This document shows positions 129-31,800 of a stretch of DNA of 38,699 bases, piece by piece. The notes under the pieces were generated by a model, which was not told where the DNA came from, did no database searches, and was given only the letters and a program-made list of their open reading frames with translations. Position 1 is the stretch's first letter. Each line of letters begins with the position of its first letter. The stretch is from IMG/VR virus record IMGVR_UViG_3300030117_006473, positions 1-38,699 of that record, one strand, 5' to 3'. The stretch is from a virus (Duplodnaviria; Caudoviricetes). The translations under genes and the position numbers were made by a program.

Positions 129-368
129 TCATTCTCCTGTGTGGTTAAGTGCGTCTCTCAACGCTTGGTCAATGATCCGTTTCAGACCATTGAATTTGTT
201 ACGATACTCTTCTTCTGTGTTAGCCTTAGTGATTCGTGCAGTAGCTGACCGAGGGTTCATCTGTTCGATGCGCCTCAACTCACCCAAGTCTTTCGCGGTT
301 GTCGTTAAGCTAACGAGACTGTCGTGGATGATTCGTTCCCACGATGCAAACATTTCACTGTCATTCAT
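129..368 (-). CDS. Hypothetical protein (79 aa)
   Basis: GGAGGTGA SD; ATG overlaps upstream TAA. Confidence 0.8.
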   Translation of the reverse strand: MNDSEMFASWERIIHDSLVSLTTTAKDLGELRRIEQMNPRSATARITKANTEEEYRNKFNGLKRIIDQALRDALNHTGE

Positions 369-544
369 TACTCACCTCCTTCGTCATCAAGTTGCGTCAT
401 TTCCAAATCGTCTTCAAATGCATCGGGGTCCGTTTTGTATCTTTCGAGAGTTTGAAAGATAAACTGCTCATGTAAGTCATCGAGACTGAGTGTTTCCCAA
501 ATGGCCTCAGCCAACTTGATTCGGTTTTCTGTATTGTTTTTCAT
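368..544 (-). CDS. Small acidic hypothetical protein (58 aa, MKNNTENRIK...LDDEGGE)
   Basis: Translated by hand; GGAGGTGA SD; TGATG coupling; below ORF-track cutoff. Confidence 0.8.
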   Translation of the reverse strand: MKNNTENRIKLAEAIWETLSLDDLHEQFIFQTLERYKTDPDAFEDDLEMTQLDDEGGE

Positions 545-717
545 CACTCACCTCCTTCGGTGGCTTCGCTTTGGCAGTAGGCGCAGGTAAAATACTCAGG
601 CCCAACTTTGTTGAGGTTCTCGGTTAAGTCACGGTCACCGTCTACGGTTACGTTGATATTGAACATCGCACTGTCATCCTTGTGAGATTCGCACTCAGGG
701 TTGCTACACTTGAGCAT
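544..717 (-). CDS. Small putative zinc-binding protein (57 aa, MLKCSNPEC...CAYC...EGGE)
   Basis: Translated by hand; CxxxxC and CxxC pairs; GGAGGTGA SD; TGATG coupling. Confidence 0.8.
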   Translation of the reverse strand: MLKCSNPECESHKDDSAMFNINVTVDGDRDLTENLNKVGPEYFTCAYCQSEATEGGE

Positions 718-890
718 CACTCACCTCCTGAACATGCTGGACAATCAGGCATAATGTCTGCAGCATCAACGACACTGTAAATGGGCTCGCCTCCTTCGAT
801 TCTGTCCAGTTGCTCCTTCGTGACGCTAACCTCTACAGGCTTTTCTAATGTCCATGTTTTGCCATCATCCAATACGTATATGTACGTCAT
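717..890 (-). CDS. Small hypothetical protein (57 aa, MTYIYVLDDG...CPACSGGE)
   Basis: Translated by hand; GGAGGTGA SD; TAATG coupling. Confidence 0.8.
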   Translation of the reverse strand: MTYIYVLDDGKTWTLEKPVEVSVTKEQLDRIEGGEPIYSVVDAADIMPDCPACSGGE

Positions 891-1102
891 TACTCACCTC
901 CTTTAATGTTCAACCAAGGCAGCCAATGTAGGGCTGTTAGCTTTAGCCAGTCTTGGGCTGTCTTTGCTTCGTCCCCGTGCCAGAAGACAACTCGCCTTAT
1001 GCCGGTTGGGGTGATGGCTACGTAGGCTTTGCCGTTTACTGTGGACTCAATCGGGTATCCTCTTTGTTTTGCTGTCTTCCACCAGATGTTTCGGCTTTTC
1101 AT
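890..1102 (-). CDS. Hypothetical protein (70 aa, Trp-rich; alternative start 1105)
   Basis: ORF track; GGAGGTGA SD spacing favours ATG at 1102. Confidence 0.8.
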   Translation of the reverse strand: MKSRNIWWKTAKQRGYPIESTVNGKAYVAITPTGIRRVVFWHGDEAKTAQDWLKLTALHWLPWLNIKGGE

Positions 1103-1551
1103 CATTCACCTCCTTTTGTTACTGTGAGACCTTTCTCGGTCATTGGGTTGTCGTAGATGTCTACGTCTTCAATGGTTATGATGCCGTCGAACTTGGTGCT
1201 GCCGGATCGCTGGATCTCGCGGTAAGGCATGACTGCTGAGAGTCGTCCATCGAATCGTGCTTGCCCGTTCTTGACTTTGAAGTTGCCTTTGCGGATTGCA
1301 TCAAGGTCACGGACCAGACAGTTGTACGTGGACTCGTTGATTCGATCCAGCAAGTATTGAAGTACGTTGTCAATGCCTGCTCGGCTTCGACGGTTGCTTG
1401 TGCCGTTCTCTCCTTTCTTGAGTTGACCTTCGATTGTGACGGTCATGTTGATTGGGTATGTGCCCGGAGGCAGGTCGTTCTCAAGCACATCAGCGTTCTT
1501 GCCGTTGTTGAACTTGCGAAGTGTTTCGAGGTACTTTGCATCAATTTCCAT
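1102..1551 (-). CDS. Hypothetical protein (149 aa), first gene after the internal leftward promoter
   Basis: AAGGAG SD; long ORF; promoter directly upstream. Confidence 0.85.
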   Translation of the reverse strand: MEIDAKYLETLRKFNNGKNADVLENDLPPGTYPINMTVTIEGQLKKGENGTSNRRSRAGIDNVLQYLLDRINESTYNCLVRDLDAIRKGNFKVKNGQARFDGRLSAVMPYREIQRSGSTKFDGIITIEDVDIYDNPMTEKGLTVTKGGE

Positions 1552-1902: not shown

Positions 1903-2130
1903 TTAGAACGGTTTGATTGAGTCAAAGATGTCAACACCCATTGCGGACATCTCTTCGCGGAGATCCCGGCAACGACGCTCGTAAGCATCGATGTTGTCTG
2001 GATCTTCGTGGGCTTCTGGCGCAAGCAGTATCTCTTGTTCCAGTTGATTCTCCAGATTAACCATGGTGAGTTGCTCTGGAGTGAGGAAGACTGGACCTTG
2101 CCAGTTCGTCATGTCGAGTAGTGAGTACAT
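1903..2130 (-). CDS. Acidic hypothetical protein (75 aa) ending DIFDSIKPF
   Basis: AGGAGA SD within the repeated leader module. Confidence 0.8.
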   Translation of the reverse strand: MYSLLDMTNWQGPVFLTPEQLTMVNLENQLEQEILLAPEAHEDPDNIDAYERRCRDLREEMSAMGVDIFDSIKPF

Positions 2131-2158
2131 TTCATTCTCCTGAGTGTTTGGTTAGGGT

Positions 2159-2476
2159 TTAGAAGGGAATCTCTGTGTCTTTGCTCAACTCGGGCCACAT
2201 GTCGTTGCGGTGGTCGCAGGTACAAACGTACTCGTCAACAGCGCCGCAGTAGATACAGTGAGCAAGGTCGGGACGATACTCGGGGTGAATGTGACCGTTG
2301 TCGAGCCAAGCGTCCCAGCACTCAGTTGGGATCTTGCGATCTTCGGCCCAGTTTTGGAAAGCGAGCCAATCAACAGCAGCAGCTTCCTGCTCAGCTTCAC
2401 GGCTGGCCTCTGCGGCACGAGGATCTTGTTGGATCATCAAGCCGATCTCAAAGTCTCGGCATTCGGAAAAAGCCAT
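2159..2476 (-). CDS. Acidic hypothetical protein (105 aa) with CxxC..CxC cluster and SSB-like C-terminus DTEIPF
   Basis: AAGGAGA SD; motifs read from translation. Confidence 0.8.
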   Translation of the reverse strand: MAFSECRDFEIGLMIQQDPRAAEASREAEQEAAAVDWLAFQNWAEDRKIPTECWDAWLDNGHIHPEYRPDLAHCIYCGAVDEYVCTCDHRNDMWPELSKDTEIPF

Positions 2477-2501
2477 GTCATTCTCCTTTGTTGGTTAGGG
2501 T

Positions 2502-2678
2502 TTAGTATTGATAGATTTCGGGTGGTTTTCCGAAGTACCACCACCCGGTGATTTTGCAGAGGTAGACCGTTACACCGCCGTAATTTTTGAGGAAGAACAT
2601 TGCGTTATCGTCATTGGCAACCTCTTTGGGAAGCAGGTCCTTTTCGAAGATCACAACGCCGTCGTAGTATGGATTCAT
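2502..2678 (-). CDS. Small hypothetical protein (58 aa, MNPYYDGVVIFEKD...PEIYQY)
   Basis: Translated by hand; AGGAGA SD within the repeated leader; fills the gap in the operon. Confidence 0.8.
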   Translation of the reverse strand: MNPYYDGVVIFEKDLLPKEVANDDNAMFFLKNYGGVTVYLCKITGWWYFGKPPEIYQY

Positions 2679-2704
2679 GTCACTCTCCTGAGTGTTTGGT
2701 TTGC

Positions 2705-2766
2705 GCTTGATTGCACACTGTAGCCATCTGACCGTGAAGCCAGATGACTACCGAATGGAATCAAAC
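2705..2766 (-). repeat. Intergenic hairpin repeat, copy A (structured RNA element)
   Basis: 17-nt flanks identical to copy B; 12-13 bp stem at 2721-2750 with G-U pairs on the minus strand. Confidence 0.9.
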
Positions 2767-3375
2767 TTGGTTGTATTTCCACTGCTCGTCGATGTGAGCG
2801 TCAGCCTCCTCCATCCACCGATCGAACTGGCTGATGAACTCCGAGGTGTCAACCAGCATGGTGCTTACGTCGTCGACCTGAACCGAACGGTCAAGGATGT
2901 CGATGTAGGGTGACTTGGGCATCTCGGAGTCAGCGTCTGCTTTCTCGGCCTTGCTGGGCCAGTAGGGACCGACGTGCTTGGAAGAAGGTCGACCCTGCCA
3001 CTCGACGTGCCGGAAGTGTTGGTTGTGGAAGAACACCGGGTTGTTGTAGAACGACTCCTTTACCCCCCAACTGTAGGTGCTCTTGCGCTGGTTGAACTCG
3101 CTGTCACCTCGAACCCAAGATTTGAGACTGCGGGGCATGCTCATCGCAATCTGCCGAGCAACCTCGATGCTCTTGCAGAGGTAGTGGAAGTGGATGTTGC
3201 CGGTGTCTGGATCGATGAGGATCATAGCGACTGTCTGCGCAATCTCTCTCCCATCCTTCAGGGTGATCTTTCCGTGGGCAACTGAGCCGTACTTCATGAA
3301 GTGCATGGTCTCGGATACCGGGATGTAGCGGGGACGGATGACGCGGCTGAGCCAAGATTGTTGTGAACGAGACAT
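2761..3375 (-). CDS. Hypothetical early protein (204 aa)
   Basis: GGAGG SD before ATG 3375; stop codon lies inside hairpin repeat A. Confidence 0.85.
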   Translation of the reverse strand: MSRSQQSWLSRVIRPRYIPVSETMHFMKYGSVAHGKITLKDGREIAQTVAMILIDPDTGNIHFHYLCKSIEVARQIAMSMPRSLKSWVRGDSEFNQRKSTYSWGVKESFYNNPVFFHNQHFRHVEWQGRPSSKHVGPYWPSKAEKADADSEMPKSPYIDILDRSVQVDDVSTMLVDTSEFISQFDRWMEEADAHIDEQWKYNQV

Positions 3376-3401
3376 AGTGACCTCCAAGGTCGTTGGTTAG
3401 T

Positions 3402-3461
3402 GCTTGATTGCACACTGTGACCATCCGACCGGAGCCGGATGATCACCGAATGGAATCAAAC
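3402..3461 (-). repeat. Intergenic hairpin repeat, copy B
   Basis: Same flanks as copy A; 12-bp stem at 3418-3445 with three compensatory base-pair changes. Confidence 0.9.
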
Positions 3462-3728
3462 GATGGTAGCGATACCTTCGACGCCGACCCAAAGTTCTTC
3501 GCGTGACTTGATGCGCAGGCCGATTGCTTTACTCAAAGCCCACAGAACGTCGTTGAATGCGTAGTAGTCTTCGAAGCCGTCCATCCCGTGGATTTTGGTG
3601 TCGAGGTCGAGGTGGTACAGTTGGTCGTGAGCCTCAAGTTCGATTTCTGTCTGCATCTCACGTAGCTTTTCGATGCTGTTCGTGGTGCTGATTTTCTCGA
3701 AGGTTTCGAGTAGTTGTGAGCAAGACAT
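3456..3728 (-). CDS. First gene of the leftward early array, acidic helical protein (90 aa, MSCSQLLETF...)
   Basis: GGAG SD before ATG 3728 in the same leader architecture as neighbours; stop codon inside hairpin repeat B. Confidence 0.8.
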   Translation of the reverse strand: MSCSQLLETFEKISTTNSIEKLREMQTEIELEAHDQLYHLDLDTKIHGMDGFEDYYAFNDVLWALSKAIGLRIKSREELWVGVEGIATIV

Positions 3729-3752
3729 AGTAAGCTCCAAGATTTGTTTGGA

Positions 3753-3959
3753 TTGATTGTTGTGTGTGACCGGGCTCGTCCCGATCACGGAATGGATGAC
3801 GCACTGGAGGAGTGGAGTGCAAGGGACTTGAGCCATTTGGAACAAATGGTTTAGGAGGGTCCGCGAGGAACGAGTGGAAACCCGAAAGGCCCTTGCATGG
3901 AAGGAGTACTGTGCGACAACCAATGGAGTGAGGGCGAGTCCGGTCACACCAACAATCAA
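3753..3959 (+). ncRNA. Candidate 207-nt structured ncRNA: long rod with 13x13-nt bubble and branched end, 13 GGA motifs
   Basis: Nested inverted repeats 3753-3781/3932-3959, 3785-3804/3911-3931 and 3818-3825/3890-3897; hairpins 3827-3855 and 3857-3883; six G-U pairs favour the + strand. Confidence 0.6.
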
Positions 3960-4267: not shown

Positions 4268-4831
4268 ATGCCAAAGAAGGAAGCGTTGCACATCAAGGTA
4301 CCGGTAGACGACTACGTGTTGGATCGTCTGGACGAGGTCATCCCGGTCATCTCCGAGTCTGCGGCTGCGCGAGAGTTTGGCGTTGAGGTCACGCGCGAGA
4401 TGGTTGCCCGCATGGCCCTCGTTCGCGGACTGAAAGACCTCCGCCCTCCACCACCTGCGTCCACGAAACCGCCGACATCCCCACAAACCACAAAATCAAC
4501 GCCACCACAAACCACAGAGGCTCCAGCGGAGCCCGAAGCGCCGCGCGACAACGCAGGAATGATACGCATTCCAGATGGTTGGCATCAGTGGGGGATCAAG
4601 GAGCGGGTTCCAGAGGCTCAGTTTGACGTACATTCGTACTACGATCGTCAGGGATGGCGTCGGTACTGGGGCAAGGCGGGCGATGAGACCATGGTGTTCT
4701 ACTGGTCGCCGGACCCATCATTGCAAGATGTTGAAGCATACGACGGTCAAGATCCATCGGGTAAGACTATAAAGGTGCAGGAGACTCCGTATGGTCCGGG
4801 TCACATTGTTCCGCACGGTTGGGGTTCGTAA
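4268..4831 (+). CDS. Putative regulator: N-terminal ribbon-helix-helix-like domain, Pro/Thr linker, Trp-rich C-terminal domain
   Basis: AGGAGG SD; alternating strand LHIKVPV, helix DYVLDRLDEV and helix TREMVARMALVRGL fit an Arc/MetJ/CopG pattern (by eye). Confidence 0.6.
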   Translation: MPKKEALHIKVPVDDYVLDRLDEVIPVISESAAAREFGVEVTREMVARMALVRGLKDLRPPPPASTKPPTSPQTTKSTPPQTTEAPAEPEAPRDNAGMIRIPDGWHQWGIKERVPEAQFDVHSYYDRQGWRRYWGKAGDETMVFYWSPDPSLQDVEAYDGQDPSGKTIKVQETPYGPGHIVPHGWGS

Positions 4832-5572: not shown

Positions 5573-7744
5573 ATGTCAGATGTAAAAGGTCGCATGTCTT
5601 TTGAAGACGCTATGTCTACGGACCCGAACGAGTTCGAGCGATTGATGCTCGAAAAACGAAAGTCGACTTCGATGCCGAGCTTGATTCCTGAAGAGTTCAA
5701 GGCAGAAGATCGTGCCCTGACAGAGTCAGAGGAAGCAGAGGCTCAAGAAATTGCAACCGGTATGAAGCGTAGAGACACAGCGCAGCGCGTTCAGGACTTG
5801 GGTGAAGAGCTTAGCCTTGCTGGTTTGGCTCCTACGGTCTCAGGTCAAGTGACCGGATTTGTAGGGGATCTTTTGTACTCGGGAGGCGCTGGAGCGCGGT
5901 TTCTGATGGGGGAGGAAGGAGCAGGGACTGAGGCTGCCATGGGCCTTGCTGCTGCGGCACTTCCGATTATTCCTATTGCGGGATTTGCCCGTGCGCTCAA
6001 GAGGCTTCGAGAGAATCCAGATGCGCCTGCAACTCGCGAAGCTCGTGAGTTGTATCAGACATATGTTGATCGTGTGAAGGCAGGTGAGTTGTCACCAGAA
6101 GATGCAGCCACCGAGTTGAAGCCTTTGATGGACGACGCAGGTAAGCAAGCAGCGTATGAGGGTATGTCGGCTAGAAATGAAGCTGCTGCGGCTGCTCGCG
6201 GTGCAAAGACAAGACTTACGCCACAGCAGATTCAAAAAACTTTGTCTCGGGAGCGTCAAGCTTCAGACGAAGCATCAAAACGGGCCGCGATGTCGACACG
6301 TCAGACCGATCCTACCGATATGGATTTGTACGGAAAGGCAAGTGTTGGCGAGTTTGCGGGCGGTGCGGGCACGTTTACTCCCGGAGGAAGGGCAAGAGAT
6401 CTTGATGAAGCTAAGCGTTTGAGGGGTTCAAGGAAGGATCCGGCACAGGAGTATGGTTCTGGTGAGGCTCCTGTTGGACCACGTACGGCAATCATTGGCG
6501 GTAAAAAGATGTTTGCTCGTCCGGGGGCTGCGGGGGAGTTGTCGAAGCTTCGTCAGGAGTGGCGTAAGCGTGGCCGTAAAGACAAGAAGGGCAATCCATC
6601 TCCGCTTCCAACAGAGGCCGATGTGCCGAGCTTCTTTGTGAGTGAGCGTCAATACAAGAGTATGGTCAGCGCAGCAAGCCGAGACCCGAACGCAGCAAGA
6701 AAGCTTCGCAGTCGCAGAGTGAAGAAACTGGCCGGACAACAAGAGGCGCTAGAGGCTGATCGGGCCAAGCGCGCTGCTGCTGAGGCGGCGAAGAGACCTA
6801 CTCAGTACAATGAGCTTGAGATGGAGTTTATTCAGGGCGTGCCAAAGGAACAACAGAACGCGGCGCGTAAGCTAATAGATGAACAAAAAGCTGCGGGGCA
6901 GATGGTTGCAAAAGACGCAAAGGGTCAGTTTGGTTTCCGGCCCACCGGTTCGGGTATGACTCAAGCTACTCAAGGTAAAAAAAAAGTAAGTGACCCTTCG
7001 GGGGAGCCACCGAAGGACGTTGCGGTTGATGAACCCAAAATAAGCGGGTCAAAAATAAACACGCCTAACTTTAAATCTTGGTTTGGTCGGGGCGTTATTG
7101 CCAAAAATTCTGGTGAGCCGATACCGTTGTACCACTCAACAACCAAGAGCTTTGACGCATTCGAGCCCTCTAAAGAGGGATTGATGGGGCCCGGAATTTA
7201 CACATCATTATCGAGCAAGCACGTAAATGATTACATTGTAGATAAAGAAAAACGGACAATAAGGCGTGGCGCTAATGTTATTCCTTTATTTAGCAGCATT
7301 CGCAATCCTGCGTTTTTGTTGGACCCTATCGGGAAGGATCGTCTCGATCCCATACTGAGGAAGTTGTCCGATGCTGGAATAGAAGTTTCTCCTCGTTCTC
7401 CTGATGGAATCAACTCATACTGGGATTTGTTGACCTCACTTCCGGCAGAAGATCGAGCTATCAATGTTCGTGGTAAGAAAATTATAAACGAGGCCCTTCA
7501 AGATATGGGTCACGACTCATCCATATTTTCAAGAAGGAATGATTTCATACGTTACAGGGCATCAAACTTTGTTGATACTCCAGAAGACATGCACGTTCTG
7601 GTTTTCGATCCAACCAATGTGAAGTCACCTTATAACAAAGGAACCTTCGACCCGACCGACCCATCGATTCTGAAGGGCATCGGAGTAGGCGCAACAATCC
7701 CCGCCGCTACTGCCGCACGCTCTCAGCGACAAGAGGAAGGGTAG
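5573..7744 (+). CDS. 723-aa protein with C-terminal ADP-ribosyltransferase-like (ART-PolyVal-type) domain
   Basis: Motifs FKSWFG, P.PLYHST..F..F, GPGIYT, VIPLF..IRNP, GHDS and VFDPTNVKS..NKGTFDP.DP.I at about 7061-7672; Gly/Ala hydrophobic helices near the N-terminus. Confidence 0.8.
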   Translation: MSDVKGRMSFEDAMSTDPNEFERLMLEKRKSTSMPSLIPEEFKAEDRALTESEEAEAQEIATGMKRRDTAQRVQDLGEELSLAGLAPTVSGQVTGFVGDLLYSGGAGARFLMGEEGAGTEAAMGLAAAALPIIPIAGFARALKRLRENPDAPATREARELYQTYVDRVKAGELSPEDAATELKPLMDDAGKQAAYEGMSARNEAAAAARGAKTRLTPQQIQKTLSRERQASDEASKRAAMSTRQTDPTDMDLYGKASVGEFAGGAGTFTPGGRARDLDEAKRLRGSRKDPAQEYGSGEAPVGPRTAIIGGKKMFARPGAAGELSKLRQEWRKRGRKDKKGNPSPLPTEADVPSFFVSERQYKSMVSAASRDPNAARKLRSRRVKKLAGQQEALEADRAKRAAAEAAKRPTQYNELEMEFIQGVPKEQQNAARKLIDEQKAAGQMVAKDAKGQFGFRPTGSGMTQATQGKKKVSDPSGEPPKDVAVDEPKISGSKINTPNFKSWFGRGVIAKNSGEPIPLYHSTTKSFDAFEPSKEGLMGPGIYTSLSSKHVNDYIVDKEKRTIRRGANVIPLFSSIRNPAFLLDPIGKDRLDPILRKLSDAGIEVSPRSPDGINSYWDLLTSLPAEDRAINVRGKKIINEALQDMGHDSSIFSRRNDFIRYRASNFVDTPEDMHVLVFDPTNVKSPYNKGTFDPTDPSILKGIGVGATIPAATAARSQRQEEG

Positions 7745-10878: not shown

Positions 10879-12630
10879 TCAAGCTTCACCCGTCGGGGGT
10901 AGTTGTCCTGAAGCAGCAAGCTCTTGTTCCAGTTGAAGAAGTTCCTCTTCAGACAAGCTGTCGATTACTTGTTGCGCTTCGGCCTCTTCGGTAGCTTGCT
11001 CTTGAGCCTCGATTGCAGGCTTACCGGCAGCAGCACCCCCAAGTTTCGCTTGAGCCTCAGCTTGCATAGCGGCTTGCTGTTGAGCCATCGCCTCTTGCTT
11101 CATCGCCTCTAGTTCGGCCTCTGGGATTACGATACGTCGTGACAAGCCCATTCCACCGACCACTTCTTCGGTCAACTTGCGGATGTCTACGTTTTCGTTT
11201 TGTGTCAGGAACGGAATCATCTGAATCAGGCTCTCGATCATCACAGCCGGGTTCTTTCGAATCGGGTTGTACGAGACCATCTCAAAATCAACCTCAATGT
11301 TTCGCAGATCTTTGTGACCTAGCTCAGACCACCGCTTGTCCCCTGCGATACGGATGAGGCGAGGCTTCCGCATATACTTTTTAGTAAGGTAAAAAGCTTT
11401 TCGTGCAACGTCTTCGATGGCATCATTGAGGTGCCCTTCTCGTGTTGCAAGTCGTGTTCGCATTTGGGCGTCGATGATTGCCATCTCCGTGGCTGTCCGA
11501 GCACCGACAACCTGTCCTCGGGCGGCCTCAGCAAGTGCTGAAATAAAAGCAGCATCGTCTTCCTGTCGAGCGATGAACTCTTTAACACCCGTTGGGGCAT
11601 CTGGGATGGGCATTTCGTAGAACAATGTAGCCAAGCTTCGAAGTGTCTCACTGTTTGACGGATTGATTCCGATGAACGCGCCAGCACTGGCTTCGACAGC
11701 TTTGTTCAGGTCCTCTTCTGTGACTCGTCCTGAATCGTACAGGATCCTCGGAATCTGAAGATAGGTGATTTGTTTCATGTGAGTCAGCAAGTCGTTGATG
11801 GTTTCTTGCTGTTTCAATACCAATTGAACTTCACTCAAACCAAGGCAGTCAATGCCAGATTGGTTGAGGCTGAACATCGAGTATGGGATGTAGTCAATTT
11901 TGTCTTCGAACACTACGGCGTCAGCTTGCTTCACATAGTGTTGTACGATTCCGCGTTCACGATCGTAGTACTCGTAGATGGTGACCCACTTGAATGCATC
12001 ACGCAGTTGTTGTGTGTCGCTGCTTTGATTCTGATCTTGCAGCCACTTCGGGTACCGATCGGGTTGGACATCGGTCACAAGTTCTGCTTTGTACAAACCT
12101 GCACGCACACGGTTCTTGAACTCGTCAAAAGAGATAACGGTGGCTTCAATCCAGTATCGAATGTCGTCTTGATCCCGAACCGTCAGGTCAAAAAACACGG
12201 ATGATGGATTGACCGCACGAATGACGGGGATGTCTCGTTGTGCGTCCCAGCCGGTCTTGAAAATGCCACGCTTACAGAGAACCGCGTCGATCAAGGCTGT
12301 TGCTGCTTTTCGACGAAACCGATTGGTTTGGAAGACATACTCAAGCAGGCCGGACACAGAGGTAGCAGACTCTTGAGATTGAGGTGTACGTGCGACAGCA
12401 GCAACAGATGGGTTGGGTCCAAGCAGAGCACTGACCGCAGTGTCAGCAATCGCGTAGATCATGTTCTTAGAGCAAAGGTACGAATCCAGTCGTGTGTTGC
12501 TCAGGTCGCTATCAGAACTCGTAAAGAAATCGCCTCGGTAGAATCGTCGAGCTTTGTCAAACTGACGCTTCTCTGATCGCTTGTAGTACGTCAGGTGCCG
12601 GTCGATCAGCTTTGAGAGTTTTGATGCCAT
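10879..12630 (-). CDS. Portal protein (podovirus/P22-like)
   Basis: 583 aa; downstream of terminase; RTATE motif, IYEYYD, Q..IN helix and Gln/Ala-rich C-terminal barrel helix. Confidence 0.9.
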   Translation of the reverse strand: MASKLSKLIDRHLTYYKRSEKRQFDKARRFYRGDFFTSSDSDLSNTRLDSYLCSKNMIYAIADTAVSALLGPNPSVAAVARTPQSQESATSVSGLLEYVFQTNRFRRKAATALIDAVLCKRGIFKTGWDAQRDIPVIRAVNPSSVFFDLTVRDQDDIRYWIEATVISFDEFKNRVRAGLYKAELVTDVQPDRYPKWLQDQNQSSDTQQLRDAFKWVTIYEYYDRERGIVQHYVKQADAVVFEDKIDYIPYSMFSLNQSGIDCLGLSEVQLVLKQQETINDLLTHMKQITYLQIPRILYDSGRVTEEDLNKAVEASAGAFIGINPSNSETLRSLATLFYEMPIPDAPTGVKEFIARQEDDAAFISALAEAARGQVVGARTATEMAIIDAQMRTRLATREGHLNDAIEDVARKAFYLTKKYMRKPRLIRIAGDKRWSELGHKDLRNIEVDFEMVSYNPIRKNPAVMIESLIQMIPFLTQNENVDIRKLTEEVVGGMGLSRRIVIPEAELEAMKQEAMAQQQAAMQAEAQAKLGGAAAGKPAIEAQEQATEEAEAQQVIDSLSEEELLQLEQELAASGQLPPTGEA

Positions 12631-13005: not shown

Positions 13006-14655
13006 TTATCTCCAACTTACGGATGCGGGTCTAAAGGGTGACTTTGCTTGTTGCTTTTTGCTGCGACGATGATCGTCAAGCTGCCTGATTGTAACTTGTC
13101 CAGCCGAATATGTGCTAGGTTCCTCTCGGGCGGGCGCGTGAAACCGTCTTTTCGAGAGAATGTCGGCTGCCATGACGGCTGTTCGTGCGCGGTCAAAGTG
13201 GTGCAGAATTCCGTCTTCGCCCTTTACTCGCTTCTTCGTTGAGCCGTCATAGTTGAGAAGTTGATGCAGCGTTCCTCGACTTTGTATCTTGAGGTCACCT
13301 TGTCGGAGCATCTGAACCAATCGTGCTTCAGACTCTTGGATTTTCTTTTGTGTCGCGTACCAACCGGGATGGTTTCGACTGGTCCACAAAAGATTGCGAA
13401 CATTCTGGTCTTTTAGAATCGCAATGCACGCAGTTGCGTTTGACTCGACTGCCAACAGAGCTTGGTTGTAGCGGTCTTGTATGGTGCGAAGTCTTTGAGC
13501 GAATCGATCTGGCGGCTCGCGGTCTTCCCAGAACGCCACCTCTTTCCAGTCGATCGCATCCCACACAGTGAGTGCCGACTTGTCACCAGTACTACCAAAA
13601 CCTGCTGGGTCTGCCGTAATCAAGTACTGCTTTCCGGGTTGTGGTCCTTCAAACTCGTGACACATCGAGGGGCACAACTCGGGATCAGGCTTGGCTTGTG
13701 CGAGCCACGGCTTCAAAACTTCTGCTGGCATGACGGGATTGGTTGTTCCCAACCAACCGTCGTACGAATCAGAGGGGTACTTGCATGAGAACAAACGTGT
13801 GTCCCCCACAAACTCCGTGTTGAGCCCCCGCCTCCGAAACGCGATGTTCGCCAAATTCATTCCCGGATGACGCTGCAAGTAATCTCTTTCGGTCGCCGTA
13901 AGCTGAAAGTTCTCGACCACTTCCCGACAGCTATCGTCTTCCCACCACTCCAAAAACAACGGATAAAACCTACTGGTTCCCTGCAACGCCGAACGCCACA
14001 TCTGTTCGTGGTGAGACCCCGCTCTGCCGGGAGTGGATTCCAGTATGACTTTTGCGTTTGGTCTTTTGTTTACGGTAGGGAAAATGTTGATTGCTGCTTT
14101 TCGTTGCCATTGAGCTTCACCAAACTCAGTAATGACAAGACGGTCAATCGATCGACCAATTGCTGGTGATCGACCGCCAGCAGTAAGAACTTTAATTCCA
14201 CCACCATGAATAAACTGCATTTGAGTTGCGCCAGCTTTTCGTCCGGGAGCAAGAGGCATCTTTACGTCGTCGGGCAATCGGTTGTACGCAAACAAAATTC
14301 GCTCAAAAATATCTTCGGCAGTGTCTTGGCGCTCTGCAATAAGCAAACCTTTTACGCCACTTAAGTACATACAGTCTCTGAGTAAAAGCATCACAGACAC
14401 AGTTGTAATCTTGGCCTGACGAAACTTGTTGACCATTATCCATCTGTTTTCGTCATACGCTTTTAGAAGTTTCTTTTGCGTATGCGTAGGCTCCATGTAG
14501 CCTGTAGACTCATCCTCTCGGACAATCTGACACATAGATACAAAGGCATCAGGCGTTGAGAACAACGCACGTATTTTTCCCTGATGCAATCCCGGTGCAT
14601 CTGCAAAGTCTGCACCACTGTGAGAATTGTCTTGTTTTTTCTTCGCCTTAGCCAT
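13006..14655 (-). CDS. terL: Terminase large subunit
   Basis: Walker A-like KFRQAKIT, Walker B LVITE, coupling motif ILESTP, RNase H-like nuclease ADPAG...DKSA...AVESN...HFD. Confidence 0.95.
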   Translation of the reverse strand: MAKAKKKQDNSHSGADFADAPGLHQGKIRALFSTPDAFVSMCQIVREDESTGYMEPTHTQKKLLKAYDENRWIMVNKFRQAKITTVSVMLLLRDCMYLSGVKGLLIAERQDTAEDIFERILFAYNRLPDDVKMPLAPGRKAGATQMQFIHGGGIKVLTAGGRSPAIGRSIDRLVITEFGEAQWQRKAAINIFPTVNKRPNAKVILESTPGRAGSHHEQMWRSALQGTSRFYPLFLEWWEDDSCREVVENFQLTATERDYLQRHPGMNLANIAFRRRGLNTEFVGDTRLFSCKYPSDSYDGWLGTTNPVMPAEVLKPWLAQAKPDPELCPSMCHEFEGPQPGKQYLITADPAGFGSTGDKSALTVWDAIDWKEVAFWEDREPPDRFAQRLRTIQDRYNQALLAVESNATACIAILKDQNVRNLLWTSRNHPGWYATQKKIQESEARLVQMLRQGDLKIQSRGTLHQLLNYDGSTKKRVKGEDGILHHFDRARTAVMAADILSKRRFHAPAREEPSTYSAGQVTIRQLDDHRRSKKQQAKSPFRPASVSWR

Positions 14656-14837: not shown

Positions 14838-15887
14838 ATGTCTATCAGTACTGAACTGCTGAATACTACGTTTGCGGACCTCCGCGGACCTCTGGTTAAC
14901 TCTTTTGTTCGTAGCAATGAACTGTTCGAAGCACTTAACACTAAAGCTCGCATGCCCATGGAAGGCGGAACAAAGATTGAACGTTCCTTTTCCGGTGGTG
15001 CCCCTGCTCGTGGTGTTGGTGTCTACGTCGGTGACGAGCTACTGAACATGACACGTCGTCAACAAATCCGTAAGTTTGAGGTTGAGCCTCATCGTTTGGT
15101 AATGGCTGTGAACATTCCCAAGCGTGAACTCGCTCAGAACTCTGGCAAGTTGGCAATCATTCGCTTGATCGAAGAGTACCCACAAACCTCGATGGAAGCC
15201 GCAAAGGCTGACCTGAACAAGTTCCTTCTGACTGGTGTCAGCCGTGGACTTGCTTTTCAGACTTCGGAGTTGAAGGGATTCCTTTCGCTTAACGGTCAAG
15301 TCAACGATGGAATTGGAACTGGCGTCACTAACGGTCTTTTGGACTTTGTGGCTATCGAGTCTCAAAGTGATTCCGTTCAAAATGTCACAAAGAGCAACAC
15401 CTACTTCCACTTCAACCAATACAACGACATTTCGGCGTTTGCTACCAACGGTATTACGCAACTTCGTAAGACGTATCGTCAGTGCGCTCACTACGCTGGT
15501 GGCATCGGTAAGGGTCCAGACATGATCTACATGGATGATGACACTTACACGAACTTCGAAGATGATCGTCGTAACAACGTTCGCGTTACCCTTGTTGACG
15601 ACAAGATTGACAAAGGCAACACCTTGGGCTTGAACCTTGGTCTTGCAACTGTCACCTCGTCGATTGACTTGGATCGCGGGGACTTCAGTAGCGATGCCGC
15701 TGATGGCGTCACTTACATGCTCAACACGGACTACATCGAGTTCCCAATGCTTGAAGCCCCGAACATCTCGGAGTTCAAGGAGCGGGTTGGCGATCAGGAC
15801 GTGGTAACCGCAATCTTCGCAATGCAAGGCAACATGATCTGCACTAAGCTTCCGGCTCAGGGTTGTGTGTCTGGCGGCGCGGCTTAA
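14838..15887 (+). CDS. Major capsid protein
   Basis: 349 aa; first gene of the structural operon; L.TT...N.LF.AL..K....GG.KI N-terminus and TYMLNTDYI...GNMIC..L..QG C-terminus typical of phage MCPs. Confidence 0.88.
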   Translation: MSISTELLNTTFADLRGPLVNSFVRSNELFEALNTKARMPMEGGTKIERSFSGGAPARGVGVYVGDELLNMTRRQQIRKFEVEPHRLVMAVNIPKRELAQNSGKLAIIRLIEEYPQTSMEAAKADLNKFLLTGVSRGLAFQTSELKGFLSLNGQVNDGIGTGVTNGLLDFVAIESQSDSVQNVTKSNTYFHFNQYNDISAFATNGITQLRKTYRQCAHYAGGIGKGPDMIYMDDDTYTNFEDDRRNNVRVTLVDDKIDKGNTLGLNLGLATVTSSIDLDRGDFSSDAADGVTYMLNTDYIEFPMLEAPNISEFKERVGDQDVVTAIFAMQGNMICTKLPAQGCVSGGAA

Positions 15888-27799: not shown

Positions 27800-28831
27800 A
27801 TGCTGAAACTCTCCTTCAAAGCCACACGACAAGCCACCTCTGCCGCTGACGCTGCAGGCTCCGGCTCCACTACTCCCGACCCCGCTACTCCCGACCCCGC
27901 TACTCCCGGCTCTGCTCCTTCCGCTGCCGATGACACTGGTTCCGCCGAGGACACAGGTGTTCGAGACACGGCAGATATTGAGTTTGATGAAGCAGTTAAG
28001 TCTGCAACAGGGCCTAAAGGACGATTTGAAGCTCTCCGCAAAGCTAGAGGTGCCAAGCGTTTAGGAGCGAAAGATCTAGTTCAATTAGGTGTTTCCGCTG
28101 ACTATCTGACAGGCGACGTGCTGCGGGGCGCCGCCGCTCTGAGAGACATTGACTCTGATGATATTGGGCGTGGGATCACGAGTCTGGAGATTCAGGACAG
28201 TGGCGACGCGAAAGTGAAGCGAGGATTTACTTTTGCGGGTGCAGGTTTAGACGCTCTTAAAATTGATGAAGGTCTTAGGAATATCCAACGTAAAATTGAT
28301 GCTGCTGAAGACGCTGAAGACACTCAAGCTAGAGAAAATGAATCTGTAATCGAAGGCAAGAAAAATCGATTACTAAAATTAGATTATCTACTTAGGCAGT
28401 CTGGTTCAGCCCTTAAAAAAGACCCGAAGACTAAGATGTACTCTTTCGTACCGGGTAAGCAAAATTTAGGGCCGAAATTTACAGAAGACGAAGAACGAAT
28501 TGTTCGGGCAATCATACAAAACGAAAAGAAAGCTCTTGCAGGGTCGGGCATTGTTGCGCCGACAAGAACAGACTTCTTTGGCAGAGAAATCAGCGAAAAC
28601 CCTATGGCTTCATTGGTTCGACTGTACAATAAACTTCAAACGGAAATAAATCGAAGAGAAAAATCCGTTGCTGCCTTTCAAGAAAAACAAAAACAACTTG
28701 GAGCGGCTCAATCTAGATTCAGGTCTCAGTTAAAATCTCTTGTTACAAACATGACTCCCGAAGAAAAAAAGGCTTACAAAGAAGCAATTAAAAAAAGAGA
28801 CGCCGAAAAAAACAAGGAATCAAGTAAGTAA
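27800..28831 (+). CDS. Putative internal virion protein (343 aa)
   Basis: GAGG SD; low-complexity N-terminus, basic coiled-coil C-terminus; TAATG coupling to the giant gene. Confidence 0.65.
   Translation: MLKLSFKATRQATSAADAAGSGSTTPDPATPDPATPGSAPSAADDTGSAEDTGVRDTADIEFDEAVKSATGPKGRFEALRKARGAKRLGAKDLVQLGVSADYLTGDVLRGAAALRDIDSDDIGRGITSLEIQDSGDAKVKRGFTFAGAGLDALKIDEGLRNIQRKIDAAEDAEDTQARENESVIEGKKNRLLKLDYLLRQSGSALKKDPKTKMYSFVPGKQNLGPKFTEDEERIVRAIIQNEKKALAGSGIVAPTRTDFFGREISENPMASLVRLYNKLQTEINRREKSVAAFQEKQKQLGAAQSRFRSQLKSLVTNMTPEEKKAYKEAIKKRDAEKNKESSK
27871..27915 (+). repeat. 15-bp tandem repeat TACTCCCGACCCCGC (2 exact copies plus 1 degenerate), encoding TPDPA
   Basis: Read directly from the sequence. 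Confidence 0.9.
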
Positions 28832-31800
28832 TGTCGGAGCAAACTGAACAGACTAAAGACTCGCCAGAGGTAGAGTCAACGTTTAATTTTGAAGATGAAG
28901 ATTTAAACTTTGGTAGTCAGGATCTTCAAATCGATAAGCTTGTTGGTACCATTAAACTAAAGCGTGAAATTGCTTTGGATCCCGACGCTGATACCGATGA
29001 GGACATAGTATCTCTACCGAGTATAATTTCACGCCACAGTAAAAAATTAGGTCTTTCCGACGATCAGTTCGTTGAAGTTGCGGCAGCGCAAGGTTTAGAT
29101 CTTGGTGAGTTGGTTGACCGTGTAGGTCGTAAGGGTGAAGACTCGGACAAGGTTCTTGCTTCGTTGGAGCAAGGAGGGATGGTGGCCCGTTTGGGGCTGG
29201 ACAAGAGGCAGGCAGGAGTCAAGCTTAATGCCGTCAAAAAACGTGGCGTTGACATCCGAAAGAAAGCGGTGAATCGACTGTTGAAGGGCGAGAAGCGACT
29301 TGATGTGTCCGACGAAGAGGCTCAACAAACAGATCCGCTCGAAGGCTTAGTGTTCAGTCAAATCAAAGATCCTACGAAACGCCAAACAGCCGTTGCTGCG
29401 ATTACGTACAAGAAGTTTCTGGATGCTGGACTGTCAGAGAAACAAGCCCGTGCTGTGCTCGCAAACGGGTTTGCTGAAAGCAAGCTCGACTTTAACGCTC
29501 AGCGGGTCAATGACGATGAAGAGTCCTACGGTGTGTGGCAGTTCAATCGAAAGGTTGGAGAGGGTAAGGGATACTCCGTAGAGCAGTTGAAAGACCCCAA
29601 GGTCCAGTTGGACCACATCATCAAGGCGATCAAAGAGCGTCCCGAACTTGAAGGTTTTCGAGACAAAGATGCGGATGAGAATAAACTTGTTCGAGAGTTC
29701 ATGGTCAACTTTGAGCGGCCCAAGGATCAGTCAGAAGAAAAGATTCGTGAGCGTCAGAAGTTTCTGACAGCGGCCAAGCGTGTCTATGATCAGAGTAAAA
29801 CGATTTACGGCGAGAAAAATCGAGTATCTGCTGCGGAAAGAAAGAAGCAACTGGAACTGGCCCGTAAACTTGCGTTCAAAGAAAGTGATGTGCCCAAAGT
29901 TGTTGTTGATGAGGACTTTGAGACTGGCAACGCTATGGATGCCGTCCTCAAAGAGGGCTCAGAAGGGTTCGACAAAGCACTGGCAATGCGAGAGCAGTTG
30001 ACGAATCCTGACGCTGTTACCGATCCTGACCAAAAAGACCGCGCTCGATTCATTCGCAAATTGATTGCTGACATAGAAACCAAGTCGTCTGAGATTCAAC
30101 ATCAAATGTCTGAGTCTGATGGCGTCAAAAGGCTGGTGGATCAAGGTGCTCAGTATGACATTGAACGATTAGCCAAACGACGGGGCCAGACGGTATCTGA
30201 ATTTGTTGAGGCTTCAAAGAAAGAAGGTTCACCAGAAAGCATTCTCAAAAAAGAAATCTTCAAGCGGAATCTCAAACATGCTGCTCTGTACGTAACTACA
30301 GGCAAACTCGGTACCGGGGCCTTTTTGGACTACTCGTTTATCGATCCCGAGGGGGCGCTTGGTCTTGAGCGTGCATCAAAGGATGATCCGTTCTTTACGC
30401 GGTTTGGGGATGCCCTGTTGTCTCAACGAGTTCAGTTGATTGGTCTGGGTAAGGATGGAAGCACCCCAGTGTATCGGGCCGAGTCCGGTTTGGACATGAC
30501 GTTCAACCTTATGGATTCGTTTTTGGCGATTGGAGCCGGTGTCACGGAGCGAATCTCAAAAGGTCCTGAAGACGAGACTCTCTTCGAGGCTGTAAAAGAG
30601 GGAACGATTGAAGGCTTGAACGATCGTCGAACCTTTATGAAGGCGCTTTTGTCTACTGAAGGAGCCAAAAACAGCGACCTCAAAGCTGCGGCGTACGGAA
30701 CGTTTGGTCTGGTCATTGATATTCTGATGCCCGACCCTACGCTAGGTTTAGCCAAAGCTGTAGATACGTCCCGTAATTTAGCCAAGTCAATGGTTGCGAA
30801 ACGTATGCTCAAGGGCACACTACCCACAGTGTTGCCGAAGATGGAGGATGCAGCCCTTCAACTTACCGAGGCACAAACTTTGATGGTTCGCGCCGAAGAC
30901 TCGTTCCGTGCGGGACAAGATCAAGAAGCCATGGATCTTCTGACTCAAGCCCAAGAGTCTTTGGCGAAGGCAGATAAATCAGAAGCAGACATTCGTGGTT
31001 TGATTTCACAGCAAATGAGAAACGTTGACATTGTCGATGGTCGAATTGGTGAGCGGCTTTCCAAAGATGTGAAGACCATGTCTCCGTCAGGAGTTTCTGA
31101 TGAGTTTGATGACGCACTTAGCTTCAGTGAATTCGGTACTCGCCGAGACTACCTCCATCCTTCGTATCAACGACTTGAGTTTCGTGCCGGTGACGAAGCA
31201 TTGTCTGAGTCTCAACTTGCTTCGTACGACGAGATTCTAGGAACTCGGAACAGGGTTGAGCGTCTGAAGCAGGCGATCAACAAGTTTAATACGAGCACAG
31301 ATCAAGAACTTTTGGAGGCCGCAAAGTTAAGGAATCCAATTAAAGCTCAACTGAAAGAGTTGCGTGAAGGGATTAGTAAGGCAATCAGTAAAGATTTAGG
31401 CGCGACTAAAAACGTGGATGACGTATTGGGTGCGCAAGCTTCACTGCTCACGTATCTGTCAAAGCCCGCCACCGCGAAAGCATTGCTTGACGCGCCTCAG
31501 TCTGTGTCCGACGAAATTGGAAAGATACTCGCTCGGTTTGAGTTGAGCGACGAAGCCCTGAAACGAGCAAACAATTTTGTGGCTAAGAAAGTCGACAAAG
31601 TGGCAAAAGATGCTCAGCAAGCCGCACCTCGATTGAAAGTCAAGCTACCGCCAAGAGCCAAGATTCGGGAGGCACTGGCTGACTCGATTCGAAGCATTTC
31701 GGCTTCATTGGAGACCAGATCTGCGGCTCATGCGATTCAACGTAGCGATGTTGCAAAGCTTGAGAAGATTGAGATTGAGCCCATCATAACCAGCGTTGCA

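What the first reader, a model, noticed from the sequence alone, without database searches (positions are those of the whole stretch)
2705..3461. Repeated intergenic RNA hairpin with compensatory base changes punctuating the first early genes
Seen: 2705-2766 and 3402-3461 share identical 17-nt flanks. On the coding (minus) strand both read TTGATTCCATTCGG-[12-bp stem-loop]-CAGTGTGCAATCAA. The stems differ at three pairs and every change is compensated (A-U/G-C to G-C/A-U at pairs 2-3, U-A to C-G at pair 9); two G-U wobbles are kept and the loops differ. Each copy contains the upstream stop codon (GTT TGA) and is followed by a C/A-rich spacer, SD and ATG. TTGATT/AATCAA closes an extended irregular lower stem. 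There is no U tract, so these are not terminators. Known: T7 early mRNA is cut at intergenic RNase III hairpins; lambda nut and HK022 put are repeated antitermination RNAs. Inference: a selected cis-acting RNA motif for processing, stabilisation or antitermination, possibly a new motif family.
Basis: partly seen in the sequence, partly recalled or inferred. Interest (0 to 1): 0.78.

Follow-up and report, generated by a model that had tools for sequence, protein, structure and literature searches.

The report
Phage early-mRNA processing hairpin family
Two matching RNA hairpins between the first early genes of an uncultured marine phage belong to a conserved family found in its close relatives, and they likely act as cutting sites for the host enzyme RNase III that split and protect the long early message, a new example of a device already known from phage T7.

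Summary
The copies at 2705-2766 and 3402-3461 fold on the coding strand at z -6.7 and -7.1 and are the only two in this 38.7-kb phage contig. Relatives gave 57 copies (40 distinct), typically 1-4 per locus, confined to one clade and its early operon. In a 13-sequence alignment 14 of 23 pairs show two-sided changes. The family keeps a fixed ~26-pair geometry, with mirror-placed GAU boxes 9-11 nt from a central dyad. That is RNase III's span, and the lower half fits its published determinants. The upper half breaks one determinant, and the E. coli scoring matrix gives only weak support, so RNase III processing is likely (~0.55), not shown. The same hairpin-plus-RBS precedes many unrelated genes, and strains gain or lose cassettes at these junctions. 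One sub-lineage keeps only a short hairpin, and a distant relative has a hammerhead-like ribozyme in the same slot. No Rfam match, no host, no RNA data. Verdict: a new sequence family of a known, common kind of phage mRNA punctuation.

The parts
3402..3461 (-). Hairpin copy A; includes stop codon of ORF 3456-3728. Predicted RNase III dyad: cuts between 3447/3446 (5' arm) and 3415/3414 (3' arm) (inferred)
2705..2766 (-). Hairpin copy B; includes stop codon of ORF 2761-3375. Predicted cuts between 2752/2751 and 2718/2717 (inferred)
3373..3401 (-). C/A-rich spacer, SD (GGAGG) and ATG after copy A
2676..2704 (-). C/A-rich spacer, SD (AGGAG) and ATG after copy B
3456..3728 (-). First early gene (90 aa, no family). 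Absent together with hairpin A in the 96% relative L167 and in a strain contig of run X1
2761..3375 (-). 204-aa early gene of unknown family and fold, bracketed by copies A and B; several relatives bracket its homologue with other classes of the same hairpin
2502..2678 (-). 58-aa gene downstream of copy B; replaced by an unrelated 72-aa gene in L167
3766..3788 (-). Conserved 9-bp leader hairpin ahead of the first early gene (separate element; likely 5' leader structure)
   Evidence: 19 loci including the window
3360..3388 (-). 29-nt RBS/start repeat shared with 3713-3741 (86%); junction at which the first gene plus hairpin A is present or absent between strains
   Evidence: (D15)

Best explanation
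The two elements are members of a conserved, covarying RNA hairpin family that sits between the stop codon of one early gene and the ribosome-binding site of the next, and they likely serve as host RNase III processing signals that would cut the long early transcript into separately protected messages. Shown: structure, covariation, coding-strand polarity, intergenic position, restriction to the early operon of one phage clade. Inferred: the early operon is made by host RNA polymerase as one long mRNA (no phage RNA polymerase domain was found among the proteins scanned). Inferred: the RNase III dimer binds the ~24-pair helix centred on the S-S pair flanked by mismatches, with G at -11 on both strands. 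Inferred: only the lower half-site is optimal and the mismatches at the dyad may limit cutting to one strand, leaving a 13-bp hairpin on the 5' end of the downstream message or the 3' end of the upstream one. Side effect, supported by strain comparisons: the repeated hairpin+RBS modules mark the junctions where early gene cassettes are gained, lost or swapped.
For: Covariation: 14 of 23 pairs with two-sided changes, 93.6% of cells paired versus 29-42% in slid controls (13 sequences; the structure was derived from these sequences). Fixed geometry in 40 distinct copies (lettering of Altuvia 2018): H A-U 40/40, J C-G 40/40, I' A-U 40/40, J' G-C or G.U 33/40, E' C-G 37/40, D' A-U or U-A 38/40, A' G-C or C-G 36/40, B' U.U or U.C 39/40. 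Published RNase III preferences: G at J/J', A-U/U-A at D/D', G-C/C-G between the cuts, ~22-bp substrate (PMC6212723); one pb+db set is enough and G-C at pb4 blocks catalysis (PMC1540722). A smoothed, symmetrised E. coli matrix picks this register in 25 of 40 copies. The mirror-symmetry score is highest at this axis (0.365 versus 0.13-0.33). A sequence-distinct three-copy family in L208 has the same Y.Y / G-C / purine-mismatch centre in 3 of 3 copies, and in 2 of 3 it has U-A over U.G at K/J, the canonical distal box. A distant relative has a type III hammerhead-like sequence in the same slot, and the descriptor gave 0 hits in 1.3 Mb of shuffled sequence. Upstream stop at offsets -4 to +3 in 44 of 46 copies; SD+start within 75 nt in 43 of 46. 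T7 early mRNA carries five such signals (PMC3867540).
Against: With the paper's own scoring the window copies reach only -28.6 and -28.5 at their best registers. That lies between the thresholds -25.5 and -33.8. Only 8 of 40 copies pass -25.5 at any register, and the preferred register differs. Against structure-preserving nulls there is no enrichment (p 0.07-0.95 for 7 class representatives; 0.04-0.34 smoothed). Dyad symmetry is p=0.043 at the fixed axis but p=0.32 as best of 9 axes. The upper half has G-C at D in 31 of 40, an antideterminant in E. coli and Aquifex, and position A is mismatched in 38 of 40, whereas E. coli targets are ~90% paired there. A nested sub-lineage (L170, L185, L191, L195, L218) keeps only an 11-13-bp hairpin after the same gene, and L197 shows none in 1.9 kb, so the long form is dispensable. 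The host is unknown, and no cleavage or RNA-end data exist here.
Confidence: 0.55

Rival explanations
1. Uncut stabiliser/insulator hairpins: the structure blocks 3'-5' exonucleases for the upstream message (or binds RNase III without being cut) and keeps the downstream RBS single-stranded.
For: Very stable upper stem with a C-G closing pair (32 of 40) and UNCG-like loops. The short-hairpin lineage keeps only this part. G-C at upper D and dyad mismatches could uncouple binding from cutting.
Against: It does not explain why the lower stem, its mismatches and the mirrored GAU boxes are conserved at fixed spacing across classes whose upper stems differ. A weaker, mismatched helix is a poor design for a mere barrier.
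Confidence: 0.2
2. Binding site for a phage or host RNA-binding protein (translational control or nut/put-like antitermination); the bracketed 204-aa protein is a candidate ligand.
For: The invariant non-canonical pairs (U.U, C.N) could be a protein epitope. The 204-aa gene family is bracketed by hairpins in the window and several relatives.
Against: Loops vary in length and sequence. Copies are 0.8-3.9 kb into the operon at gene junctions, not by the promoter. Five relatives carry the 204-aa gene without the long hairpin. The protein has no recognisable RNA-binding family.
Confidence: 0.13
3. DNA-level cassette junctions (PeSL-like): the repeats are kept because recombination between them shuffles early genes, and compensations arise by template switching in the palindrome.
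For: One class of hairpin+RBS precedes 6-8 unrelated gene families (class a 6 families in 12 copies, b 8 in 11). Strain contigs join 2130 to 3402 and 3330 to 3713. L167 lacks the first cassette.
Against: G.U wobbles and fixed mismatches are retained and favour one strand, whereas palindrome correction would erase them. No sigma-70 promoter or U-tract in the element. Classes diverge in sequence while keeping geometry, which reduces recombination. More likely a by-product than the selected function.
Confidence: 0.07
4. A new small self-cleaving ribozyme (alone or by docking of two copies).
For: A hammerhead-like ribozyme occupies the same slot in one relative; invariant unpaired pyrimidines are present.
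Against: It is a single unbranched helix with no junction, pseudoknot or conserved loop, it has no Rfam ribozyme match, and copy number varies from 1 to 4.
Confidence: 0.04

Closest known systems
RNase III processing signals of the phage T7 early polycistronic mRNA (R1.1 and its minimal substrate)
   Same: Irregular hairpin of about two helical turns, repeated between early genes; mismatches at the predicted cut region; one half-site carrying the positive determinants (PMC3867540, PMC1540722: passages and figure legends read).
   Different: No sequence relationship was tested or is claimed. The conforming proximal box is in the lower stem, whereas the T7 minimal substrate is the upper stem-loop. 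The centre is a symmetric mismatch/S-S/mismatch; T7 R1.1 has an asymmetric internal loop (recalled). Cleavage is unproven and the host is unknown.
PeSL cassettes of T4-type phages RB49/phi1 (PMC2839356, PMC4122927; abstracts read)
   Same: Repeated stem-loop elements at the borders of small variable genes; indels between related phages map to them.
   Different: PeSLs are a sigma-70-like promoter plus a terminator stem-loop; these elements contain neither by the scan, and their copies diverge while keeping a fixed geometry.
Hammerhead ribozymes flanking prophage genes (PMC3088659; passages read)
   Same: Proposed to process long phage transcripts into gene-length mRNAs; one relative here (L095) has a type III hammerhead-like sequence in the equivalent slot.
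   Different: The window's element has no hammerhead core or three-way junction.
lambda nut/boxB and HK022 put antitermination RNAs (recalled)
   Same: Repeated cis-acting RNA hairpins in early operons.
   Different: Those lie just after the early promoters and depend on a conserved loop or a two-hairpin unit; here loops vary and the sites are at internal gene junctions.

Membership tests
T7-type RNase III processing signal | About 22 bp or more of largely double-helical RNA | tested here: met
   26-pair irregular helix, z -7.1/-6.7; covariation
T7-type RNase III processing signal | Intergenic, repeated, on the coding strand of a polycistronic early region | tested here: met
T7-type RNase III processing signal | At least one proximal+distal box set compatible with RNase III | tested here: inconclusive
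   Lower half fits at E', D', B' (not G-C), J'; upper half has the G-C antideterminant at D in 31/40; matrix test weak
T7-type RNase III processing signal | Site-specific cleavage by RNase III, rnc-dependent RNA ends | not testable with these tools
   needs in vitro cleavage or end mapping
PeSL (promoter-early stem-loop) | Strong sigma-70-like promoter within the cassette | tested here: not met
   No promoter-like site at either copy; other sigma types not covered
PeSL (promoter-early stem-loop) | Stem-loop is an intrinsic terminator | tested here: not met
   No U-tract on either strand
PeSL (promoter-early stem-loop) | Gene indels between relatives map to the repeats | tested here: met
Known self-cleaving ribozymes and other Rfam families | Match to the family covariance model or catalytic core | tested here: inconclusive
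   0 Rfam matches at E<=1 in the window and no hammerhead descriptor hit in it; but Rfam also missed the hammerhead-like sequence of L095, so its silence is weak
nut/boxB or put antitermination RNA | Promoter-proximal position and conserved loop | tested here: not met
   Variable loops; sites at internal gene junctions; features of nut/put recalled

The most novel reading that the evidence does not exclude
In this marine phage family the slot between early genes holds interchangeable mRNA-cutting devices: a mirror-image RNase III site that nicks only the 5' arm and caps each downstream message with its own protective hairpin in one clade, a different hairpin of the same geometry in another, and a hammerhead ribozyme in a third. 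This would be a natural swap between a host nuclease signal and a ribozyme for one job.
Probability: 0.2. Interest if true: 0.65.

Novelty: new member of a known kind. Interest (0 to 1): 0.36.

Why it matters
It adds a well-sampled natural set (40 distinct covarying copies) of probable RNase III substrates from an uncultured marine phage clade. Its invariant pairs give exact, testable cut sites and could reveal the sequence preferences of the unknown host's enzyme. The hammerhead-like sequence in the same slot of a relative makes the old proposal that phage ribozymes and RNase III sites do the same job directly testable. As a kind of device it is known and common, so the gain is incremental.

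Tried and rejected
Exact-flank pattern scan of viral contigs gave 8 hits; none folds into the hairpin, so they were taken as chance. A degenerate pattern gave 41 loci; the 32 outside the phage family, searched with 7 earlier loci, gave at best 24 bits (L149), and that site does not fold as the motif. Rfam: nothing in the window, nothing in 6 related loci at gathering score, only a tRNA in 4 others. Host: no cultured relative (best terminase 21-26% identity), none in GTDB genomes, SSB homologues unnamed. Expression: no RNA holder listed; the one run laid is contigs of unrecorded kind and cannot show ends. The 204-aa bracketed protein: no Pfam or PHROG family, 12 unnamed homologues, Atlas hits below 0.9, model pLDDT 70 with no clear solved-fold match and one unnamed viral homologue. 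N4-type single-stranded DNA promoter hairpins were considered and rejected: no RNA polymerase domain or catalytic motif was found in the 2827-aa protein, and the stem is much longer than N4's (recalled). The leader hairpin at 3766-3788 was considered as a third copy and rejected (not found by the model). Broad hairpin scans were noisy and their outputs were cut; only the visible rows were used. PMC6212792 turned out to be a 1,569-character notice with no matching passage.

Full report
Context. The window is a 38,699-base virus record with a P22-like portal (10879-12630), large terminase (13006-14655), major capsid protein (14838-15887) and a 2827-aa virion protein. Its terminase has 72 related loci at 73-100% identity in viral contigs, with records up to 74 kb, but no cultured relative, so the window is probably about half of a genome. 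Contig names of the relatives point to marine samples. A 73.7-kb relative, G032, encodes a family A DNA polymerase, an SNF2 helicase and SSB. No RNA polymerase family appeared among the 47 of its ORFs that were scanned; its structural region was largely not scanned. The early genes run on the minus strand from 3728 off the left end of the window.

Observation. The two copies fold at -35.3 and -33.0 kcal/mol (z -7.1, -6.7; 0 of 200 shuffles), against -21.8 and -19.0 for the opposite strand. They are the only copies in the window, they are not terminator-like or promoter-like by consensus scan, and they match nothing in Rfam at E<=1.

Homologues. The conserved divergent gene at 4268-4831 was used as an anchor. 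A geometric scan found hairpins of the same build in the early operons of close relatives, in four further sequence classes, a-d. A covariance model was built from 13 copies. It matched 10 of 48 whole records (8 strongly, 2 weakly), with the strong hits in the early operon, and 19 of 80 metagenome loci, all with anchor identity of 59% or more. I collated 57 minus-strand copies, 40 of them distinct. I left out plus-strand shadows, two truncated hits (L166, L182), the L244 duplicates of L117, and one class-d copy in G008. On the 13-sequence alignment 14 of 23 pairs have two-sided changes and 93.6% of cells pair, against 29-42% when partners are slid. The sequences are related and the structure came from them, so this is not a p-value. 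The retention of G.U wobbles and of fixed mismatches argues for selection on RNA rather than palindrome correction in DNA (inference).

Anatomy. All classes share: a 5-6-bp basal helix, one mismatch, 3 bp, a U.U or U.C mismatch, one strong pair, one mismatch, then a 13-bp upper stem and a variable loop. In the lettering of Altuvia et al. 2018 (PMC6212723; passages, part 7 of the text and supplement part 1 read), and with the dyad between A' and A, the counts of 40 are: J' G-C/G.U 33, I' A-U 40, H' U-A 35, E' C-G 37, D' W-W 38, B' U.U/U.C 39, A' S-S 36, A mismatched 38, D G-C 31, E unpaired 24, H A-U 40, I U-A 27, J C-G 40. So each strand tends to read GAU at -11 to -9 from a staggered centre. 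The upstream stop codon lies at offsets -4 to +3 in 44 of 46 copies (the longest stop-free frame ending nearby was chosen), and an SD plus start follows within 75 nt in 43 of 46.

Test of the RNase III reading. In favour: the span, G at J/J', W-W at D' and S-S between the cuts are the published preferences. One proximal+distal box set is sufficient, and a non-G-C pair next to the cut is permissive (PMC1540722, passages and figure legends). The W-W rule at pb2 also holds in Aquifex (PMC3074117, passages), and B. subtilis shows broadly similar preferences (PMC11780869, passages). Natural E. coli sites often fit the consensus poorly (PMC5371410, one passage). Against: with the paper's own scoring the window copies reach -28.6 and -28.5 at other registers, only 8 of 40 pass the strict threshold, and there is no enrichment over structure-preserving nulls. 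The smoothed matrix, my own modification, picks the proposed register in 25 of 40 related copies, with p 0.04-0.34 per class. Mirror symmetry is p=0.043 at the fixed axis and p=0.32 as best of nine. The upper half carries the G-C antideterminant at D. The sequence evidence is therefore suggestive only.

Comparative evidence from the slot itself. L208 (46% anchor identity) has three long hairpins of different sequence before C/A spacers and SDs. Anchored on their mismatch/G-C/mismatch centre, 2 of 3 show U-A over U.G at K/J, the canonical distal box; this is one family, aligned after the fact. L101 and L114 each have one long irregular hairpin in the slot. One record (L043 = L095 = L165 = L200) has a type III hammerhead-like sequence with stems of 6, 5 and 6 pairs, preceded by a hairpin and followed by spacer, SD and ATG. 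The descriptor found it alone in 1.38 Mb and 0.49 Mb of loci and 0 times in 1.3 Mb of shuffles; the core consensus is recalled and Rfam did not report it. Hammerheads flanking prophage genes have been proposed to cut long transcripts into gene-length mRNAs (PMC3088659, passages). Against a strict need for the long form: five loci of a nested sub-lineage (support 98/95) keep only an 11-13-bp hairpin after the same gene, L197 shows none in 1.9 kb, and most distant relatives show no such element.

Gene shuffling. Hairpin class a precedes 6 protein families in 12 copies, class b 8 in 11, the window type 6 in 7, class d 3 in 6, and class c 1 in 7. The 96% relative L167 lacks the first gene together with hairpin A, the junction falling in a 29-nt RBS/start repeat. 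Contigs of run X1 join 2130 to 3402 and 3330 to 3713, with short replaced stretches between. This resembles PeSL-mediated shuffling (PMC2839356, PMC4122927, abstracts) but without promoter or terminator. I treat it as a consequence of repeated modules.

Mechanism. Most likely the host RNase III cuts the early transcript at these hairpins, at 3447/3446 and/or 3415/3414 and at 2752/2751 and/or 2718/2717. This would release the 204-aa gene as its own message and, if only one arm is cut, leave a protective hairpin on one product; single-strand cleavage creating stabilising hairpins is established for RNase III, and T7 has five such signals (PMC3867540, passages). All cutting steps are inferred; confidence 0.55. 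Rivals: uncut stabiliser 0.2, protein-binding/antitermination 0.13, DNA cassette junction only 0.07, new ribozyme 0.04.

Novelty. The sequence family is not in Rfam. Its motifs appear in no relevant paper: one search gave 4 unrelated papers, and topical searches showed no description of it. The IMG/VR catalogue of 8,495 candidate viral RNAs (PMC10690425; passages read) could already hold it: 6 supplementary files gave no hit, but 3 were not searched. The scan's own index has no look-alike sequence but 123 findings with the same words, several of them reaching the same T7-like reading; these are unchecked AI notes and not support, but they show the device is common. Verdict: real, well-conserved, new member of a known kind; interest 0.36.

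Noticed in passing
L095 2728-2787 (-) (= L043 21333-21392 +): Type III hammerhead-like ribozyme with one extra base before stem II, between the first two early genes and just upstream of the RBS; not reported by Rfam; seen in one record only.
   Followed up: partly
L208 3149-3193, 2711-2751, 729-769 (-): A second three-copy family of long intergenic hairpins of different sequence but similar central geometry.
   Followed up: partly
L101 2785-2860 (-); L114 6305-6380 (-): Single long irregular hairpins starting at a TAA, before C/A spacer and SD, early in the operon.
   Followed up: no
window 3759-3919 (-): Leader of about 160 nt, 82% identical in L083/L084, z -3.1 for 3800-3940, ending in a 9-bp hairpin conserved in 19 loci; no sigma-70 consensus promoter was found.
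   Followed up: partly
L083 ~2690-3060 (-); similar in L084, L085, L197: Non-coding stretch of about 350 nt rich in GTAACAC/GTGTTAC repeats inside the early operon; possible origin or protein-binding array.
   Followed up: no
window 362-1115: Five successive small genes end in the codons for GGE, so that each SD overlaps the stop and next start (repeat family D1); looks like built-in translational coupling.
   Followed up: no
window 28831-37314 (+) and 5573-7744 (+): The 2827-aa virion protein has phage-lysozyme and Rho N-terminal domains; the 723-aa protein has an ART-PolyVal domain. In G032 the gene next to the anchor gene is instead a 1208-aa protein with Rho_N.
   Followed up: no
L161 17118-19892 (-) (G032): Family A DNA polymerase fused to a uracil-DNA-glycosylase-like domain; two DUF2589 genes in L162.
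   Followed up: no
L083 ~2050-2090 (-) and other class c copies: Class c hairpins are followed by a second small conserved hairpin before the RBS of the 204-aa gene family.
   Followed up: no
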